64,000 bases of DNA from NCBI RefSeq assembly GCF_009914755.1, contig NC_060925.1. One strand, given 5' to 3'. The notes below the pieces were generated by a model that searched no databases, was not told where the DNA came from, and worked only from the letters and a program-made list of their open reading frames with translations. The position numbers and the translations under genes were made by a program. This DNA comes from the human T2T-CHM13v2.0 reference genome, Homo sapiens. Numbering within the stretch: position 1 is the stretch's first letter; every line of letters begins with the position of its first letter. Shown piece by piece: positions 2,854 to 29,989 of this stretch.

Positions 2854-3225
2854 ACATTCTTTGTCCATTTTTCAATTTTGCTGCTGGTCTTTTAATAATT
2901 TATGATAGCTTTATATATACATTACCCAAATTAGCTCTTTGTCTGTTATATATGTTAGAGATTTCCCCAGTCTGTTGACTTTTGACTTTGAGGCATTTTT
3001 CTCTCATAGAAAGTTTTAATTTTTATGGAGTCAAATGCATCAGTCTTCTATTCAATGACTTCTTCATGGGGATGGTGTTTCATTTTAGGATAATAATAAA
3101 GTTGTAGATATGAATAAAGGAGATGGTCGTACAATAATGTGAGTATACTGAATGCCACTGAACTGTACATTTAAACATGATTAAAATGGTAAGATTAATG
3201 TTATATATATTTCACCACCAAAAAA
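2854..3225. mobile_element. Two old L1 fragments (minus-strand piece 2854-3055; plus-strand 3' end ~3060-3225)
   Basis: L1M-like sequence; both pieces recur inverted at ~29645-29988. Confidence 0.6.
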
Positions 3226-3435
3226 GGGCCAGGCTTAGATGTTTATATGTTAGAGGTTTGGAGTAGCTTTGACACCTATTCCTCTCCAGGGCTCTAATTT
3301 ATAAAGCACCCACACAATAAAAGTAGATATTAACTTCACAAATCTCCATGGCATCTTATAAGCCCCACACCAGGGACTGTCTTGGAAAGCTGATGTGGAA
3401 AAACTGGCATAAACTTGAGGTCAATATGAGACTTC

Positions 3436-5990
3436 TTGTCTCTTCTCATGCTGCTAATAAAGACATACTTGAAACTGGGTAATTTATAAGGGTAATTTAT
3501 AAAGGAAAGAAGGTTTAATGGTTTCACAGTTCCACATGGCTAGGGAGGCCTCAAGATCACAATGGAAGGTAAAGAAGGAGCAAAGTCGTGTCTTACATTG
3601 TGGCAGGCAAGAGGGAAGTGAGAGCCAAGTTAAGTGGGAAGTCCCTTATAAAACCATCAGATCTCATGAGGACTCACTCAACATAATAACGGTATGGGGG
3701 AACCACCCCCCATGATTCATTTCTCTCCGCCTGGTCCCACCCTTGACACATAGGGAATATCACAATTCAAGGTGAGATGTGGGTGGGGACACAGAGCCAA
3801 ACCATCTTATTCCATCCACAGCCCCTCCCCAATCTCATGTTCTCACATTTCAAAACCAATTTTGCTTTCCCAAAGTCTTAACTCATTTAAGCATTAACTC
3901 AAAAGTCCATACTCTAAAGTCTCATCTGAGACAAGTCCCTTCCACCTATGAGCCTGTAAAGTCAAAAGAAAGTTAGTTACTTCCTAGATACAGTGGGGGT
4001 ACAGATATTGGATAAATACACCTGTTCCAAATGTGAGAAGCTGGCCAAAATGAAGGGGCTACAGGCCCCATGCAATTCCAAAATCCAGTGGGGCAGTCAA
4101 TTCTTAAAGCTCTGAAATGATCTCCTTTGACTCCATGTCTCATGTCCAGGTCTTGCTGATGCAAGGCTGCCCACAGCCTGGGGCAGATCTGTCCCTGTGG
4201 CTTTGCAGGGTACAGCCTTGCCCCCTCAGCTGCTTTCACAGGCTGGCATTGTGTGTCTGGGGCTTTTTCAGGTGCACAGTGCAAGCTGTAGGTGGATCTA
4301 CCATTCTGGGATCTGGAAGATAGTGGCCCTCTGCTCACAGCTCCACTAGGCAGTGCCCCAGTGGGGACTCTGTGTGGGGGCTCGAACCCCACATTTTCCT
4401 TCCACACTGCTCTAGCAGAGGTTATCCAGAAGGGCTGTACCCCTGCAGCAAATCTCTGCCTGGACATCCAGGCATTTCCATACATCCTCTGAAATCTAGG
4501 CACAGGTTCCTAAACCTCAATTCTTGACTTCTACACACCTGCAGGCCCAACACCATGTGTAAGCCACCAAGGCTTGAGGCTTGTACCTCTGAAGCAATGG
4601 CCTGAACTGTACCTTGGTCCCTTTTAGTCATGGTTGGAGTGACTGGGATGCAGGGCACCATGTCCCAAGGCTGCACACTGCAGGGGGCCTCTAGGCCTGG
4701 CCCAGGAAACCATTTTCTCCTCCCAGGCCTTTAGGCCTGTGATGGGAGGGGCTGCTGTGAAGGTCTCTGACATGCCTTGGAGACATTTTCCCCATTGTCT
4801 TGGTGATTAACATTCAGCTCCCTGTTGCTTATGCAAATTTCTGCTGTGGGCTTGAATTTCTTCCCAGAAAATGAGTTTTTTCTTTTCTACTGCATCATCA
4901 GGCTGCAAATTTTTCAAACTTTTATGCTCTGCTTCCTCTTTATTTTGAGATGGAGTTTCACTCTTGTCCCCCAGAATGGAGTACAGTGGTGTGATCTCGG
5001 CTCACTGCAACCTCCGCCTCCTGGGTTTAAGTGATTCTCCTGCCTCAGCCTCCTGAGTAGCTGGGATTACAGGTGCCTGCCACCATGCCTGGCTAATTTT
5101 TATATTATTAGTAGAGACAGGGTTTCCCCTTGTTGGTGAAGCTGGTCTTGAACTCCTGACCTCAAGTAATCTGCCCACCTTGGCCTCCGAAAGTGCTAGG
5201 ATTACAGGCATAAGCCACCGTGCCTGGTCCCTCTGTGTCCTCTTGAATGTTTTGCTGTTTAGAAATTTCTTCTGCAAGATACCCTAAATCATCTCTCTCA
5301 TTAAAAGTTCCACAAATCTCTAGGGCAGGGGCAAAGTGCCACCAGTCTCTTTGCATAGCAAGAGTGACCTTTACTGCAGTTCCCAACAAGATCCTCATCT
5401 CCAACTCAGACCACTTCAGTCTGGACCTTATTGTTCACATCACTATCAGCAACTTGGTCAAAGCCATTCAACAAGTCTCTAGGAAGTTCCAAACCTTCCA
5501 ACATCTTCCTGTTTTCTAAGCTCTCCAAACTGTTCCAACCTCTGCCTGTTACCCAACTCCAAAGTCACTTCCACATTTTGGGGTGTCTTTACAGCAGCAC
5601 CCTACTCCTGGGAGCAATTTACTGTATTAGTCTGTCCTCACACTGCTAATAAAGACAACCTGAGACTGGGTAATTTATAAAGGAAAGGAGGTTTAATGGA
5701 CTCACAGTTCCACATGGCTGACGAGGCCCCACAATCATGGCAGAAGGTGAAAGAGGAGCAAAGTCACACCTTACATGGCAGCAGGCGTGAGAGAAGTGAG
5801 AGCCAAGTGAAGGGGGAAGCCCCTTATAAAATCATCAGCTCTTGGGACAACTCAGTCACTACCATGAGAACAGTATGGGGGAAACTGCCCCATGATTCAA
5901 TTACCTCCACCTCGTCCCATCCTTGACACATGGGCTTTATCACAAATTAAGGTAAGATTTGTGTGGGGACACAGAGCCAAACCATATAAC
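3436..5990 (-). mobile_element. Full-length THE1/MST MaLR element (LTR 3436-3808, internal region, LTR 5622-5990), THE1D-like
   Basis: Two LTRs ending ...gacacagagccaaaccat flank a THE1-int sequence (the 3973-4503 ORF is typical MaLR-int translation). It is absent from the paralogous right-arm site at ~29440. Confidence 0.9.
4938..5229 (-). mobile_element. AluS inserted in THE1-int
   Basis: Alu dimer with approximate TSD ctctg(ct/tg)tcctctt. Confidence 0.92.
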
Positions 5991-27517: not shown

Positions 27518-28771
27518 CTGTGGAGGGAAGAGGAGGAGGAGGCAGGGTGAGTCTCCAGGGCAGCCCCAGCAGCCAGGCAGGGCCTCTGCAAGTGAGATGC
27601 AGATCCAGCCTGTTGGCCACTTAGCAGCTGCTTGGCTGGCTGCAGGTCACCTGACCTCTGCTCACCAGTAAATGGGGGTTGTGGTAGCACCTACCTTCTG
27701 AGACTCCTGCAGCTTTGAAGGGGCAGCACATACCACGTGCTGAGAATGTGCCTGACTCAGGCAAGCTTCTCCAGCAGCACCACGTCAAATTAACATCCAA
27801 CTTGTACAGGACACCATCAAATCTCCCCATCCCTCATTCCAACTGTAGGAAAAGGGAGCCTCTGTCCTAGGGGAGCAAGAACAGGCATATTTATGCAGTA
27901 GGCACATGGCCCAGGTTGGGGAAAGGCCATTGGATACATGTTGGTTTCACCAGGAATCTGTGGGGTGGGTTCAGCCTAGTCCCCTGTACCCCAGGATGTC
28001 AGTAGCCCTCTGCACGGGACCAGGACTGAGAAGTGCGTGGGAGGGCTGAGCTTCGAGGGAAGCCATTATTTGGCCTCATGGGAAGTGGTGCAGGTGGTTG
28101 TTGGTGGTTCAGTTTTGCAAGGCCTGTGTGATCACCCAAGGAGTACAAATTGCCTTTTTTAAAAAAAATTGCTAAAATTGATGCAGCTCATCAGTTGAAA
28201 AGGTGAATAAGGCTGAGAGTCGGCTTCACCTGCCCCTTCCCCAGAAGTAACTGCTGTTCAGCACCTGCTCCTTCCCCAGAAGTAACTGCTGTTCAGAGAT
28301 GGGTTTGATTCCTTCCAAGCCTTTCCCCTTTGCATGCAGCTGTGTACACGTACTTAGGTGTAGACATACACCTGTTCCCTGGAGGGGTTACTTTTATTTT
28401 TTTATTTGGGGGATAACTAGTGAGGCAGCCTGGCATTTGCTCGTCTTGTCTTTTAAGTGTGGAGCCCTCTGTGGAGTGGGCACCAGGTACTTACTAGCTG
28501 GCCTCTGCCAGCTGTTTGGCTGACCCAGTTTCTGCCCTTCACAGACATGCTGGCCATCTGGTGTGACATTCAGCAGCCTTGTTCACAGCTAGTATAATGA
28601 AACAAATGGATCAGTTACCTTGTAAAATTGAAAAAGCATATAACATGCAGAGAGAAAAGAGTAAATGACCATGTGTATACTGCTCTGCTAAAGTCCATAT
28701 TACATGACTGAGATGACAAAAATTTTTTTCACCTGACATTTGGGTCCTGAGAAAGGGCATTGATGTGTTAC

Positions 28772-29068
28772 TTTTTTTTTTTTTTTTTTAGATAGAGTCT
28801 TGCTTTGTCACCCAGGCTGGAGTGCAGTGGTACAATATTGGCTCACTGCAACCTCCGCCTCCCAGGTTCAAGTGATTCTCTTGCTCAGCCTCCCAAGTAG
28901 CTGGGACTATAGGTGCATGCCACCAGGCCCAGCTAATTTTTTGCATTTTTAGTAGAGACGGGGTTTCATTGTGCTAGCCAGGATGGTCTTAATCTCCTGA
29001 CCTCATGATCCACCTGCCTTGGCCTCCCAAAGTGCTGGGATTACAGGTGTGAGTCACCTTGCCTGGCC
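28772..29068 (-). mobile_element. Alu (AluSc/Y-like), right arm only
   Basis: Poly-T followed by an Alu dimer; absent from the left paralogous region ~6350-6400. Confidence 0.9.
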
Positions 29069-29989
29069 TTTTTATTTATGATAGAGTTAGAAGAAATGCT
29101 ACCATGCTTTCTTTTCCATGATCCCCAACTCCCACTTCACCCCCTCTAGAGGAGCTCACCTGGTTAATGACAGCCTGGAATTATTTGAGCCAGGTCACTG
29201 TATAAAGGTCATACTGATTCTGTCCTCTTGTGCATCACTTGCTCAGCTCAGATATTTCATAGCTCCCTGTATACAGGTAGATGTGTTACCCTCTTAGCCT
29301 GCTTTCTTGGTTTGATACATGCCTGAGAGCATGTGAGAGCACTTAAGATCTGGGCTCATGGGAGGACTGTTCTGCCCACCCCATCTCTCCAGGTCAGCCT
29401 GCATGCATGCCTTCCTCCATCTGGTTCCAGAGTAGGGGAGGTCTCACATTGACCTCAAGTTTATGTGACTTTTTCTACCTCTACTTTCCCAGACAGCCCG
29501 TGCTGTGGGGCTTGTAAGGTGCCATGGGGATTTGTGAAGTCAATATCTACTTTTCTTGTTTGGGTGTTTTATAAATTAGAGCCCTGGAGGGGAATAAATA
29601 TTACAGGTACTCCAAACCCCTAATATATAATAAACATCTAAGCCTGTCCTTTTTTTGGTGGTAAAATGTACATATCATAAAACTTACAATTTTAACCATG
29701 TTCAAATGTACAGTTCAGTCACATCCAGTATATTCACAGTGTTGTACAGCCATCTCCTTTATTCATATCTACAACTTTTTTATTCTAAACTGAAACACCA
29801 TACCCATGAAGTCATTGTATAGAAGATTGATGCATTTGACTCTGTAAAAATTAAAACTTTCTATGAGAGAAAAATGCCTCAAAGTCAAAAGTCAACAGAC
29901 TGGGGAAATAGATCTGCAACATACATGACAGACAAAAAGCTAATTTGGGTAATATATATATAAAGCTATCATAAATTATTAAAAGACCT

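What the first reader, a model, noticed from the sequence alone, without database searches (positions are those of the whole stretch)
2885..29988. Two-age palindrome: old diverged outer arms around a freshly homogenised ~5.3-kb core
Seen: inverted homology runs from ~2.9 kb to ~30.0 kb. The outer arms differ every few bases and carry arm-specific insertions, while 10780-16103 vs 19008-24330 differ at only scattered bases. Inference: one simple duplication cannot give both ages. Either intra-palindrome gene conversion or recurrent inversion keeps the core uniform, as in sex-chromosome palindromes, or a recent template switch overwrote the 5' half of one paralog with the other. The core is a candidate inversion polymorphism.
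Basis: partly seen in the sequence, partly recalled or inferred. Interest (0 to 1): 0.8.

Follow-up and report, generated by a model that had tools for sequence, protein, structure and literature searches.

The report
Layered tubulin-pseudogene palindrome with flipping spacer
Two dead beta-tubulin gene copies lie head to head on human chromosome 1q42.13; their inner 5.3 kb is kept almost identical by repeated copying between the two copies, the outer parts diverged long ago, and the 2.9-kb piece between them is already catalogued as a common human inversion.

Summary
Inverted homology runs 2886-16103 against 29988-19008 around a 2,904-bp spacer.

There are more than two ages (K2P distances):
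- outer arms: 0.22
- two patches, 2966-3260 and 8192-8441: 0.10
- TUBB8P exon-4 zone, 9845-10779: 0.041
- core, 10780-16103: 0.0028, which is 15 substitutions and 2 one-base indels

The arms are copies of the dispersed TUBB8-family duplicon. No other genomic copy exceeds about 89% overall identity to the core, so the homogenisation happened within the locus.

In the outer zone, arm 2 groups with TUBB8, TUBB8B and other copies rather than with arm 1. The AU test rejects the arms as sisters (p=0.0035), and an Alu is shared only by arm 2 and the chr1:241 Mb copy.

Arm 2, the spacer and the right flank together form a full duplicon copy with a deletion at an Alu. Arm 1 is an old inverted partial copy.

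The best explanation is recurrent arm-to-arm recombination, whose domain has retreated toward the centre. Three results support it:
- there are several strata
- substitutions shared by both core arms are GC-biased
- the spacer is a catalogued polymorphic inversion (Porubsky 2023, Table S1), with 11 heterozygotes among 44 samples

This is a new member of a known kind and of moderate interest.

The parts
1..2885 (+). Outer extension of the left (inverted, partial) duplicon copy. It is colinear with the other family copies. Family homology starts about 280 bp left of the window. It carries a roughly 365-bp insertion at 2496-2860 that is absent from the 5 family copies aligned there.
2886..9844 (+). 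Arm 1, old outer part. K2P to arm 2 is 0.22 over 3261-9844. In a tree rooted with the chr9:149.48 Mb copy it branches below arm 2 and all sampled crown copies.
2966..3260 (+). Tip patch of intermediate age. K2P is 0.104 and private changes are symmetric (13 against 15). Probably an old conversion patch.
3434..5994 (+). Arm-1-specific 2,561-bp insertion. Direct repeats at 3490-3805 and 5668-5985 are 80.7% identical and LTR-like. There is an Alu at 4939-5224.
8192..8441 (+). Island of intermediate age. K2P is 0.104 and private changes are symmetric (12 against 9).
9845..10779 (+). Arm 1, middle stratum, inside TUBB8P10 exon 4. K2P to arm 2 is 0.041. The arms are sisters here (100/100).
10780..16103 (+). 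Arm 1 core: the 5' 145 bp of exon 4, exons 3 to 1 and about 4 kb upstream of TUBB8P10. It is 99.7% identical to arm 2.
9747..11720 (-). TUBB8P10, an unprocessed beta-tubulin pseudogene. Exon 4 has 13-18 stops in each frame. The former stop codon is at 9918-9916.
   Evidence: hub annotation
16104..19007 (.). Spacer of 2,904 bp. It is part of the duplicon and contiguous with arm 2 in every other copy where the junction could be read. It is a catalogued polymorphic inversion.
19008..24333 (-). Arm 2 core.
24334..25269 (-). Arm 2, middle stratum, inside TUBB8P9 exon 4.
23022..25367 (+). TUBB8P9, an unprocessed beta-tubulin pseudogene. Exon 4 has 13-23 stops in each frame. The former stop codon is at 25197-25199.
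   Evidence: hub annotation
25270..29988 (-). Arm 2, outer part. It is of crown type, 80-93% identical to TUBB8, TUBB8B and the chr12, chrY and chr1:241 Mb copies. The Alu at 28766-29065 is shared only with the chr1:241 Mb copy.
29990..30292 (+). Alu at the outer end of arm 2, with no clear target-site duplication. It marks a deletion of more than 3 kb of duplicon sequence relative to the other copies.
30293..34300 (+). Right flank. It also belongs to the duplicon: 83-88% identical to sequence lying outside the arm-equivalent in the chr12, chrY and chr1:241 Mb copies.

Best explanation
What it is. The locus holds one near-full copy of the TUBB8-family segmental duplicon in reverse orientation. 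That copy comprises the spacer, arm 2 with TUBB8P9, and the right flank, and it has lost more than 3 kb at an Alu. Abutting it head to head is an old inverted partial copy: the left flank and arm 1 with TUBB8P10.

How it works. The two copies recombine with each other within the chromosome. A break in one arm is repaired from the other arm.
- Non-crossover repair copies sequence across (gene conversion) and keeps the arms alike.
- Crossover repair flips the spacer.

How the layers arose. Recombination needs near-identity. Stretches that escaped it diverged and then became barriers, so the converting domain has shrunk toward the centre in steps:
- scattered patches about 10% diverged
- the exon-4 zone, 4% diverged
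- the present 5.3-kb core, 0.28% diverged

Shown here:
- the strata
- the phylogenetic switch between zones
- the colinearity with other duplicon copies
- the GC-biased shared substitutions
- the published inversion polymorphism

Inferred:
- that conversion was recurrent rather than two or three isolated events
- that the mismatch cluster at 10766-10779 now acts as the outer barrier
- the absolute ages
For: Strata:
- K2P is 0.22 (outer), 0.104 (patches), 0.041 (exon-4 zone) and 0.0028 (core).

Homogenisation is local:
- The best non-self match to the core is 88-89% overall, among 45 matches.
- The highest 400-column window against any aligned copy is 92.5%.

The phylogeny switches between zones:
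- In the outer zone, rooted with the chr9:149.48 Mb copy, arm 2 lies in a 100/100 clade with 6 other copies (the chr1:241 Mb copy, both chrY copies, the chr12 copy, TUBB8 and TUBB8B) that excludes arm 1.
- The AU test rejects an arm 1 + arm 2 clade, p=0.0035.
- Site patterns in the outer zone: the crown copies agree with arm 2 at 435 sites and with arm 1 at 174.
- An Alu at 28766-29065 is present in arm 2 and the chr1:241 Mb copy. It is absent from arm 1 and from the chr12, chrY, chr10 and chr18 copies.
- In the exon-4 zone the arms are sisters at 100/100, with a long shared stem (0.073), short tips (0.016-0.025) and symmetric private changes of 17 against 15.
- That makes at least two homogenisations of different age and extent.

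GC bias:
- Non-CpG substitutions shared by both core arms are 75 W->S to 63 S->W.
- The adjacent outer arm 2 shows 40:96 (Fisher p=3e-5).
- The chr12 and chrY copies of the same stretch show 18:53 and 48:109.
- This is the pattern reported for X-chromosome palindromes (abstract of PMC8981503).

Arm-to-arm crossover occurs in living people:
- Table S1 of PMC10150506 lists a 3,020-bp simple inversion at window 16046-19065.
- It is supported by PAV and Strand-seq.
- Of 44 samples, 11 are heterozygous (1 at low confidence), 1 has a complex code and none is homozygous inverted.

The process is neutral:
- Both exon 4 copies carry 13-23 stops in every frame.
Against: - No second species or second human haplotype could be examined here. 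Concerted evolution over time is therefore inferred from one genome.
- The strata could in principle reflect as few as two or three isolated events.
- The GC bias of shared substitutions could come from an allelic recombination hotspot confined to the core rather than from arm-to-arm exchange. The subtelomeric chr4 copy shows a similar bias, 49:48.
- Arm-to-arm biased repair does not by itself explain why all 11 polarised A/T-versus-G/C differences still separating the arms are W->S.
- The basal position of outer arm 1 joins two long branches, so long-branch attraction is possible, although root-to-tip lengths are clock-like (0.138 against 0.10-0.13).
- The left flank is closer to the chr1:241 Mb copy (path 0.13) than a purely old copy predicts. 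This needs an extra old conversion of the outer end.
- A PRDM9-like 13-mer occurs once per core arm but is not above chance: 4 in the window against 2.4 expected.
Confidence: 0.75

Rival explanations
1. A single recent replication template switch or break-induced replication event copied arm 2's inner 5.3 kb over arm 1's old inner part. It entered through the similar exon 4 sequences and ended at a non-homologous junction at 16103/16104. The few differences accumulated neutrally afterwards.
For: - The outer edge of the core lies inside exon 4, where the copies were already 96% alike.
- The inner edge is abrupt, with no residual homology in the spacer.
- Arm 2 plus the spacer is the arrangement found in the other copies, so 16103/16104 is a true breakpoint.
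- The core's affinity to other copies (85-92%) matches arm 2's outer part and not arm 1's.
Against: - It needs a separate earlier event for the exon-4 zone (K2P 0.041, symmetric 17:15) and for the roughly 10% patches.
- Neutral decay should be rich in G/C-to-A/T changes. None of the 11 polarised changes is, against 17 of 26 in the exon-4 zone (Fisher p=2e-4).
- Shared core substitutions are GC-biased over a long stem, which predates any recent event.
- The catalogued inversion shows that homologous exchange between the arms is ongoing.
- The 16103/16104 junction could equally date from the original ancient duplication.
Confidence: 0.12
2. The old outer 'arms' were never one in-place inverted duplication. 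Two different members of the TUBB8 duplicon family arrived at 1q42.13 by separate duplicative transpositions and happened to lie in opposite orientation. Conversion then homogenised the parts still similar enough. This rival concerns the origin of the outer arms only, not the core mechanism.
For: - Outer arm 1 branches below all sampled crown copies, whereas arm 2 sits among them.
- 1q42.13 is listed among internal loci enriched for subtelomeric duplicons (passages of PMC2323237).
- No other copy in the genome is closer than 78% to outer arm 1.
Against: - The inner end of arm 1 coincides to the base with a point inside the neighbouring copy, and the two copies abut directly at 16103/16104. This is what an in-place inverted duplication gives and would be a coincidence for two independent insertions.
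- The sequence left of arm 1's copy is not the continuation expected if the right-hand copy had been split by an insertion.
Confidence: 0.2
3. The near-identical core is an assembly artefact, or it is held identical by purifying selection on a functional element.
For: Nothing specific. Near-identical inverted repeats can be misassembled in short-read drafts.
Against: - The arms plus spacer span 13.6 kb.
- An inversion with ends in these arms was called from phased assemblies and Strand-seq in 44 other samples.
- The window has no N.
- Selection is excluded as the cause. The same stretch is only 85-92% identical to its paralogues, so it evolves freely.
- The genes are dead.
Confidence: 0.02

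Closest known systems
Sex-chromosome palindromes with arm-to-arm gene conversion: human Y P1-P8 and primate X palindromes. Seen here: search listing of PMC3723533 and PMC8327919 and abstract of PMC8981503.
   Same: - Inverted arms around a unique spacer.
- Arm identity above 99% in the converting part.
- GC-biased nucleotide replacement in the arms.
- Spacer inversion by crossover between arms.
   Different: - This one is autosomal.
- The near-identical part is only 5.3 kb.
- It carries dead pseudogenes rather than testis-expressed gene families, so no selection need be invoked.
- Identity (99.7%) is lower than the >99.9% of Y palindromes (listing of PMC3723533).
- It keeps its fossil outer arms, which display successive retreats of the converting domain.
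Polymorphic human inversions mediated by inverted repeats through non-allelic homologous recombination. Seen here: inversion callset of PMC10150506 (passages and Table S1).
   Same: - A 3-kb segment flanked by highly identical inverted duplications.
- Both orientations are present in people.
- It is called by assembly comparison and by Strand-seq.
   Different: - The catalogue lists coordinates and genotypes only.
- In the text and tables I could read, the flanking repeats' stratified history, their duplicon identity and their conversion signature are not described.
- Whether this inversion is recurrent was not visible to me. The Cell 2022 paper and its tables are not held.
TUBB8-family subtelomeric/pericentromeric duplicon: TUBB8 on 10p, TUBB8B on 18p, and copies on 4q35, 16q, 9q, chr12, chr20, the acrocentric short arms and chrY.
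   Same: Both arms, the spacer and both flanks match these copies at 73-92% and are colinear with them.
   Different: - This is an interstitial site.
- Two copies lie in inverted orientation.
- Outer arm 1 is more divergent than every sampled copy except the one at chr9:149.48 Mb.
Inverted duplications made by template switching between inverted repeats (DUP-TRP/INV-DUP). Seen here: search listing of PMC11293582.
   Same: One junction lies in a pair of inverted similar sequences and one junction is non-homologous.
   Different: - There is no net copy gain relative to the older structure.
- Several ages of homogenisation are present.
- The substitution history is GC-biased.

Membership tests
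Palindrome maintained by arm-to-arm gene conversion | Two inverted arms flanking a unique spacer | tested here: met
   Arms end exactly at 16103 and 19008. The spacer is 2,904 bp with no internal inverted homology found.
Palindrome maintained by arm-to-arm gene conversion | Arm-to-arm identity above 99% over arms longer than about 8 kb. This threshold is recalled from the sex-chromosome literature and comes from no call. | tested here: not met
   Identity above 99% holds over 5.3 kb only. The full 11-13 kb arms average far less.
Palindrome maintained by arm-to-arm gene conversion | Arms evolve in concert: they cluster by species, not by arm | not testable with these tools
   No other primate genome is available. 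Within the human genome, the arms are sisters in the exon-4 zone and the core but not in the outer zone.
Palindrome maintained by arm-to-arm gene conversion | GC-biased replacement in the arms relative to flanking sequence | tested here: met
   Core stem 75 W->S to 63 S->W against outer arm 2 at 40:96, non-CpG sites, p=3e-5. With CpG sites included, the 900 bp of spacer tested shows 15:24.
Inverted-repeat-mediated polymorphic inversion (NAHR) | Both orientations present in the population, with breakpoints inside the inverted repeats | tested here: met
   Table S1 of PMC10150506: window 16046-19065, verdict 'pass'. Of 44 samples, 11 are heterozygous, 1 of them at low confidence.
Inverted-repeat-mediated polymorphic inversion (NAHR) | Recurrence (toggling) on different haplotype backgrounds | not tested
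   This needs haplotype phylogenies. The paper that tested recurrence is not held.
TUBB8-family duplicon | Colinear homology with the TUBB8 (10p) and TUBB8B (18p) blocks, including an intron-bearing beta-tubulin gene | tested here: met
   The exon 4 translation is recognisably beta-tubulin but broken.
Template-switch inverted duplication (MMBIR / DUP-TRP/INV-DUP type) | A single event with one homologous and one microhomology junction, plus copy gain | tested here: inconclusive
   The junction at 16103/16104 is abrupt, but its age is unknown. Multiple strata and the GC-biased history argue against a single event.
Ancestral telomere-fusion site | Head-to-head degenerate TTAGGG arrays at the centre | tested here: not met
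   No match to two telomere repeat units, allowing one mismatch, anywhere in the window.

The most novel reading that the evidence does not exclude
1q42.13 may be the birthplace, or an early station, of the whole TUBB8 duplicon family, and may carry an inverted duplication older than the family's dispersal to subtelomeres and pericentromeres. On this reading its inner arms have evolved in concert for tens of millions of years with no gene to protect, while the converting domain retreated stepwise toward the centre. That would make it a natural time series of how a palindrome dies from the outside in. In addition, the fact that every polarised difference still separating the core arms is an A:T-to-G:C change would be a direct footprint of the repair process, either error-prone synthesis at A:T pairs or very strong biased conversion, rather than of ordinary mutation.
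Probability: 0.25. Interest if true: 0.55.

Novelty: new member of a known kind. Interest (0 to 1): 0.38.

Why it matters
- It is a small autosomal example, free of selection, of the process usually studied in sex-chromosome palindromes.
- Because the fossil outer arms survive, one locus shows the original duplication, several successive conversion limits, the GC bias of the process and a living inversion polymorphism.
- It could serve as a tractable model for measuring how sequence divergence shuts down recombination between inverted repeats. The whole structure (about 27 kb) can be spanned by ultralong single reads, and its near-identical part plus spacer (13.6 kb) by ordinary long reads.
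- It also warns that the two 'arms' of an apparent palindrome inside a duplicon family need not be each other's closest relatives.

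Tried and rejected
Hypotheses rejected or left unsupported:
- Telomere-fusion origin. No TTAGGG arrays were found.
- Overwrite of the core from another genomic copy. No copy is closer than about 89% overall, and none of the 8 other copies aligned carries the arm-private alleles, except one site in one acrocentric copy.
- Coding constraint as the cause of the 96% exon-4 zone. In that zone both arms are only 78-89% identical to the other copies and equally distant from them, and both reading frames are destroyed.
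- A past flip of the whole palindrome by crossover in the arm tips. I considered this to explain why the left flank goes with arm 1 and the spacer with arm 2. It became unnecessary once the right flank proved to be duplicon sequence too, so that arm 2's outer end is a deletion. Site patterns in the tip are too few to decide.
- PRDM9-like motif. One occurs per core arm, which is not above chance.

Searches that gave nothing useful:
- The first search with the 3.5 kb left of the window was swamped by a high-copy repeat. A narrower query gave the answer.
- The Cell 2022 inversion paper is not held, and supplements of bioRxiv preprints are closed. Whether this inversion was scored as recurrent is therefore unknown to me.
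- The 2021 inversion preprint does not mention 1q42 or TUBB8 in its text.
- A search for 1q42.13 together with inversion terms found 0 papers.
- TUBB8P9 or TUBB8P10 occur in 1 held paper, which I saw only as a search listing (1 occurrence of TUBB8P10).

Full report
**Observation**

A self-comparison of the window shows inverted homology from 2886 to 16103 against 29988 to 19008. Ungapped inverted pairs are 100% identical over 3,421 nt (12662-16082 against 19030-22450), 99% over 2,305 nt and 96% over 428 nt.

The junctions are exact. Both arms read the same up to 16103 and 19008 and then differ at once, which leaves a 2,904-bp spacer.

A global alignment of the arms, read in 250-column windows, gives:

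| Arm 1 range | Identity |
|---|---|
| first window (2885-3130) | 93.7% |
| 3131-9844 | 74-90% |
| 9845-10590 | 95-97% |
| 10591-10840 | 98.0% |
| 10841-16103 | 98.8-100% |

Kimura distances are:

| Zone | K2P |
|---|---|
| 3261-9844 | 0.22 (67 gap events) |
| 2966-3260 | 0.104 |
| 8192-8441 | 0.104 |
| 9845-10779 | 0.041 |
| 10780-16103 | 0.0028 |

The last zone holds 15 substitutions and 2 one-base indels in 5,324 aligned bases.

Arm-specific insertions are real:
- Arm 1 carries 2,561 bp at 3434-5994. This insertion has LTR-like direct repeats that are 80.7% identical, and an Alu.
- Arm 2 carries a 300-bp Alu at 28766-29065.

**What the sequence is**

The hub annotation places TUBB8P10 (minus strand) and TUBB8P9 (plus strand) head to head, with their 5' ends toward the spacer.
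- Exon 4 of both translates to recognisable but wrecked beta-tubulin, with 13-23 stops in every frame.
- The former stop codon lies at 9918-9916 and 25197-25199.
- The 4% zone therefore covers most of exon 4 and ends 50-100 bp into the old 3' UTR.
- The core covers the first 145 bp of exon 4, the upstream exons and about 4 kb of upstream sequence.

Searching the window's own genome shows that the core, both outer arms, the spacer and the right flank all belong to a dispersed duplicon. Its copies include 10p (TUBB8), 18p (four tandem copies, TUBB8B), 4q35, 16q, 9q, chr12 and chr20 near the centromeres, the acrocentric short arms, chrY, chr3 and chr1:241 Mb.

Ambrosini et al. 2007 already list 1q42.13 and 1q43-q44 among internal loci rich in subtelomeric duplicons (passages of PMC2323237).

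No telomere repeats are present in the window.

**The homogenisation is local**

The best non-self match to the core is 88-89% overall. The highest 400-column window against any aligned copy is 92.5%.

At the 15 sites where the core arms differ, the private allele is absent from all 8 other copies aligned, except at one site in one acrocentric copy.

**The outer arms are not sisters**
- Outer arm 1 is 73-78% identical to everything, including arm 2.
- Outer arm 2 is 80-86% identical to the other copies but 78% to arm 1.
- In 400-column windows, arm 1 against the other copies runs about 69-87% and arm 2 against them about 80-93%. From about 10000 inward the two arms are equally distant from the others.

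A copy at chr9:149.48 Mb is about 69% identical to both arms and serves as outgroup. In that rooted tree:
- Arm 1 branches first. Arm 2 sits in a 100/100 clade with the chr1:241 Mb, chrY, chr12, TUBB8 and TUBB8B copies.
- The AU test rejects an arm 1 + arm 2 clade, p=0.0035.
- Root-to-tip lengths are clock-like, 0.138 for arm 1 against 0.10-0.13 for the others.

Site patterns agree. Where the arms differ in 5995-9844, the other copies side with arm 2 at 435 sites and with arm 1 at 174.

A rare genomic change agrees as well. The Alu at 28766-29065 is shared by arm 2 and the chr1:241 Mb copy only.

One caveat applies. Arm 1 and the outgroup are both long branches.

**Inner zones**

In the exon-4 zone the arms are sisters at 100/100, with a shared stem of 0.073 and tips of 0.016-0.025. 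Private changes are symmetric, 17 in arm 2 and 15 in arm 1.

This is not coding constraint. Both arms are only 78-89% identical to the other copies there, and the frames are broken.

The zone was therefore homogenised once, about 4% divergence ago, and then left alone, while the core was homogenised again much later.

Two further patches, 2966-3260 and 8192-8441, have K2P 0.10 and symmetric private changes (13:15 and 9:12). Against the 72:28 background these give p=0.004 and p=0.005, but both patches were chosen after seeing the data.

**Architecture**

In every other copy where it could be read (chr12, both chrY copies, chr4, chr3, acrocentric copies), the core is followed by the spacer in the arrangement seen on the arm 2 side. 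Hence 16103/16104 is a breakpoint and 19007/19008 is not.

At the outer end, the other copies continue from the arm into sequence homologous to window 1-2490, that is, on the arm 1 side. That family homology begins about 280 bp left of the window.

Arm 2's homology stops at the head of an Alu (29990-30292) that has no clear target-site duplication.

The right flank, 30293-34300, is also duplicon sequence. In the chr12, chrY and chr1:241 Mb copies it lies beyond the left-flank equivalent, in the opposite sense.

The simplest reading has three parts:
- The right side (spacer, arm 2, right flank) is a full duplicon copy that later lost more than 3 kb at the Alu.
- The left side is an old inverted partial copy that abuts it.
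- No ancient flip is needed.

The left flank is closer to the chr1:241 Mb copy (path 0.13) than an old copy predicts. I attribute this to an old conversion of the outer end, made before the right-hand deletion. That attribution is an inference.

**Signature of the process**

I counted non-CpG substitutions private to a lineage, at sites where the other aligned copies all agree:

| Lineage and region | W->S | S->W |
|---|---|---|
| Core stem (shared by both arms) | 75 | 63 |
| Adjacent outer arm 2 | 40 | 96 |
| chr12 copy, core region | 18 | 53 |
| chrY copy, core region | 48 | 109 |
| chr1:241 Mb copy, core region | 122 | 173 |
| Subtelomeric chr4 copy, core region | 49 | 48 |

The core stem against outer arm 2 gives Fisher p=3e-5. 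With CpG sites included the contrast is 100:81 against 29:76, p=8e-6.

A GC-biased history of this kind is what Jackson et al. report for X-chromosome palindromes (abstract of PMC8981503). It argues for repeated biased exchange rather than one recent event.

Of the 15 substitutions still separating the core arms:
- 11 are W->S
- none is S->W
- 2 are S<->S
- 2 cannot be polarised

The exon-4 zone shows 9 W->S to 17 S->W, which I counted by hand from the list (Fisher p=2e-4).

Biased arm-to-arm repair alone should not skew differences that are still unresolved. This point remains unexplained. The candidates are allelic biased conversion at a hotspot, or error-prone repair synthesis at A:T pairs.

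A PRDM9-like 13-mer occurs once per core arm, which is not above chance.

**Inversion**

Table S1 of Porubsky et al. 2023 (PMC10150506) lists T2T chr1:226688046-226691065. This equals window 16046-19065, that is, the spacer plus 58 bp of each arm. The entry is 3,020 bp, has the verdict 'pass' (simple inversion), and is supported by PAV and Strand-seq.

Of 44 samples:
- 11 are heterozygous, 1 of them at low confidence
- 1 carries a complex code
- none is homozygous inverted

According to the methods passages I read, the table belongs to a 41-genome multi-platform callset lifted to T2T-CHM13.

CHM13 carries the common orientation. This is also the arrangement found in the other duplicon copies.

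**Mechanism and ages**

A break in one arm is repaired from the other arm on the same chromatid. Non-crossover outcomes homogenise the arms, and crossovers flip the spacer.

Stretches that escape exchange diverge and then block further exchange. The active domain has therefore retreated from the whole arms to the inner 6.3 kb, and then to 5.3 kb.

A cluster of 5 differences in 14 bp (10766-10779) sits exactly at the present limit. It may act as a barrier, which is an inference.

The rates used for dating are recalled, not taken from any call: 0.5-1.0e-9 per site per year. With them:
- The core's 0.28% corresponds to roughly 1.4-2.8 million years since the last full homogenisation.
- At steady state it corresponds to a conversion rate near 4e-6 per site per generation. 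That is far below the value recalled for Y palindromes.
- The 4% zone is of the order of 10-20 million years old.
- The outer split is older than the spread of the sampled crown copies.

**Verdict**

The kind of system, a palindrome with gene conversion and repeat-mediated inversion, is well known, and the inversion itself is catalogued.

As far as my searches show, the following are new:
- the layered history
- the non-sister outer arms
- the deletion that forms the right end
- the GC-biased and A:T-only mutation patterns

The searches behind that statement:
- TUBB8P9 or TUBB8P10: 1 paper, seen only as a search listing
- 1q42.13 with inversion terms: 0 papers
- the 2021 inversion preprint: no mention of 1q42 or TUBB8 in its text

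Supplements that I could not see may hold more: the Cell 2022 tables and the preprint supplements.

Noticed in passing
window 29990-30292: The Alu at the outer end of arm 2 has no clear target-site duplication. The flanks share only about 5 bases next to the poly-A. The sequence beyond it (30293-34300) is duplicon sequence that in other copies lies more than 3 kb away. This suggests an Alu-associated deletion rather than a plain insertion.
   Followed up: partly
window 10766-10779 / 24334-24347: Five differences between the arms fall within 14 bp, exactly at the outer limit of the 99.7% core. Three are derived in arm 2 and two in arm 1. The next difference inward is 574 bp away.
   Followed up: partly
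window 12448-15422: All 11 polarised A/T-versus-G/C differences between the core arms are changes at A:T pairs toward G:C. In arm 1 orientation, 9 of the 11 are at T. None is a C-to-T type change.
   Followed up: partly
window 3434-5994: Arm-1-specific element flanked by direct repeats of about 316 bp that are 80.7% identical (LTR-like), with an Alu inside at 4939-5224. The repeat divergence is about as large as the divergence between the outer arms.
   Followed up: no
window 2496-2860: A roughly 365-bp insertion between the left flank and arm 1, absent from the 5 family copies aligned there (chr1:241 Mb, chr12, chrY, chr10 and chr18). A similar sequence lies next to the shared Alu in the core.
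   Followed up: no
window 28227-28296 and 33428-33500: A 35-bp tandem duplication in arm 2 that is absent from arm 1, and a 19-bp unit repeated 3.8 times in the right flank.
   Followed up: no
L035 (G000:C9:149480300-149485100): A much more diverged member of the same duplicon. It is about 69% identical to both outer arms and 82% in exon 4. It was useful as an outgroup and shows that the family is older than the copies usually discussed.
   Followed up: partly
G000:C24:18.42 Mb and 19.29 Mb (L006/L020, L007/L021): Two chrY copies of the duplicon in opposite orientation, about 870 kb apart. They are identical or nearly so over the stretches compared, as expected for the arms of a Y palindrome.
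   Followed up: no
G000:C18:40-206 kb: Four tandem copies of the duplicon on 18p at about 54-kb spacing, nearly identical in their match scores.
   Followed up: no
window 25235-27866: Six of the eight annotated exons of the predicted lncRNA LOC105373122 lie in outer arm 2, on the strand opposite to TUBB8P9. The equivalent stretch of arm 1 has no annotated transcript.
   Followed up: no
G000:C1:241463699-241478069 (L003, L024): The chr1:241 Mb copy shares arm 2's Alu and carries the left- and right-flank equivalents. Its homology stops about 110 bp short of the arm/spacer boundary and it lacks the spacer. It looks like a copy taken from the right-hand copy before that copy lost its outer part.
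   Followed up: partly
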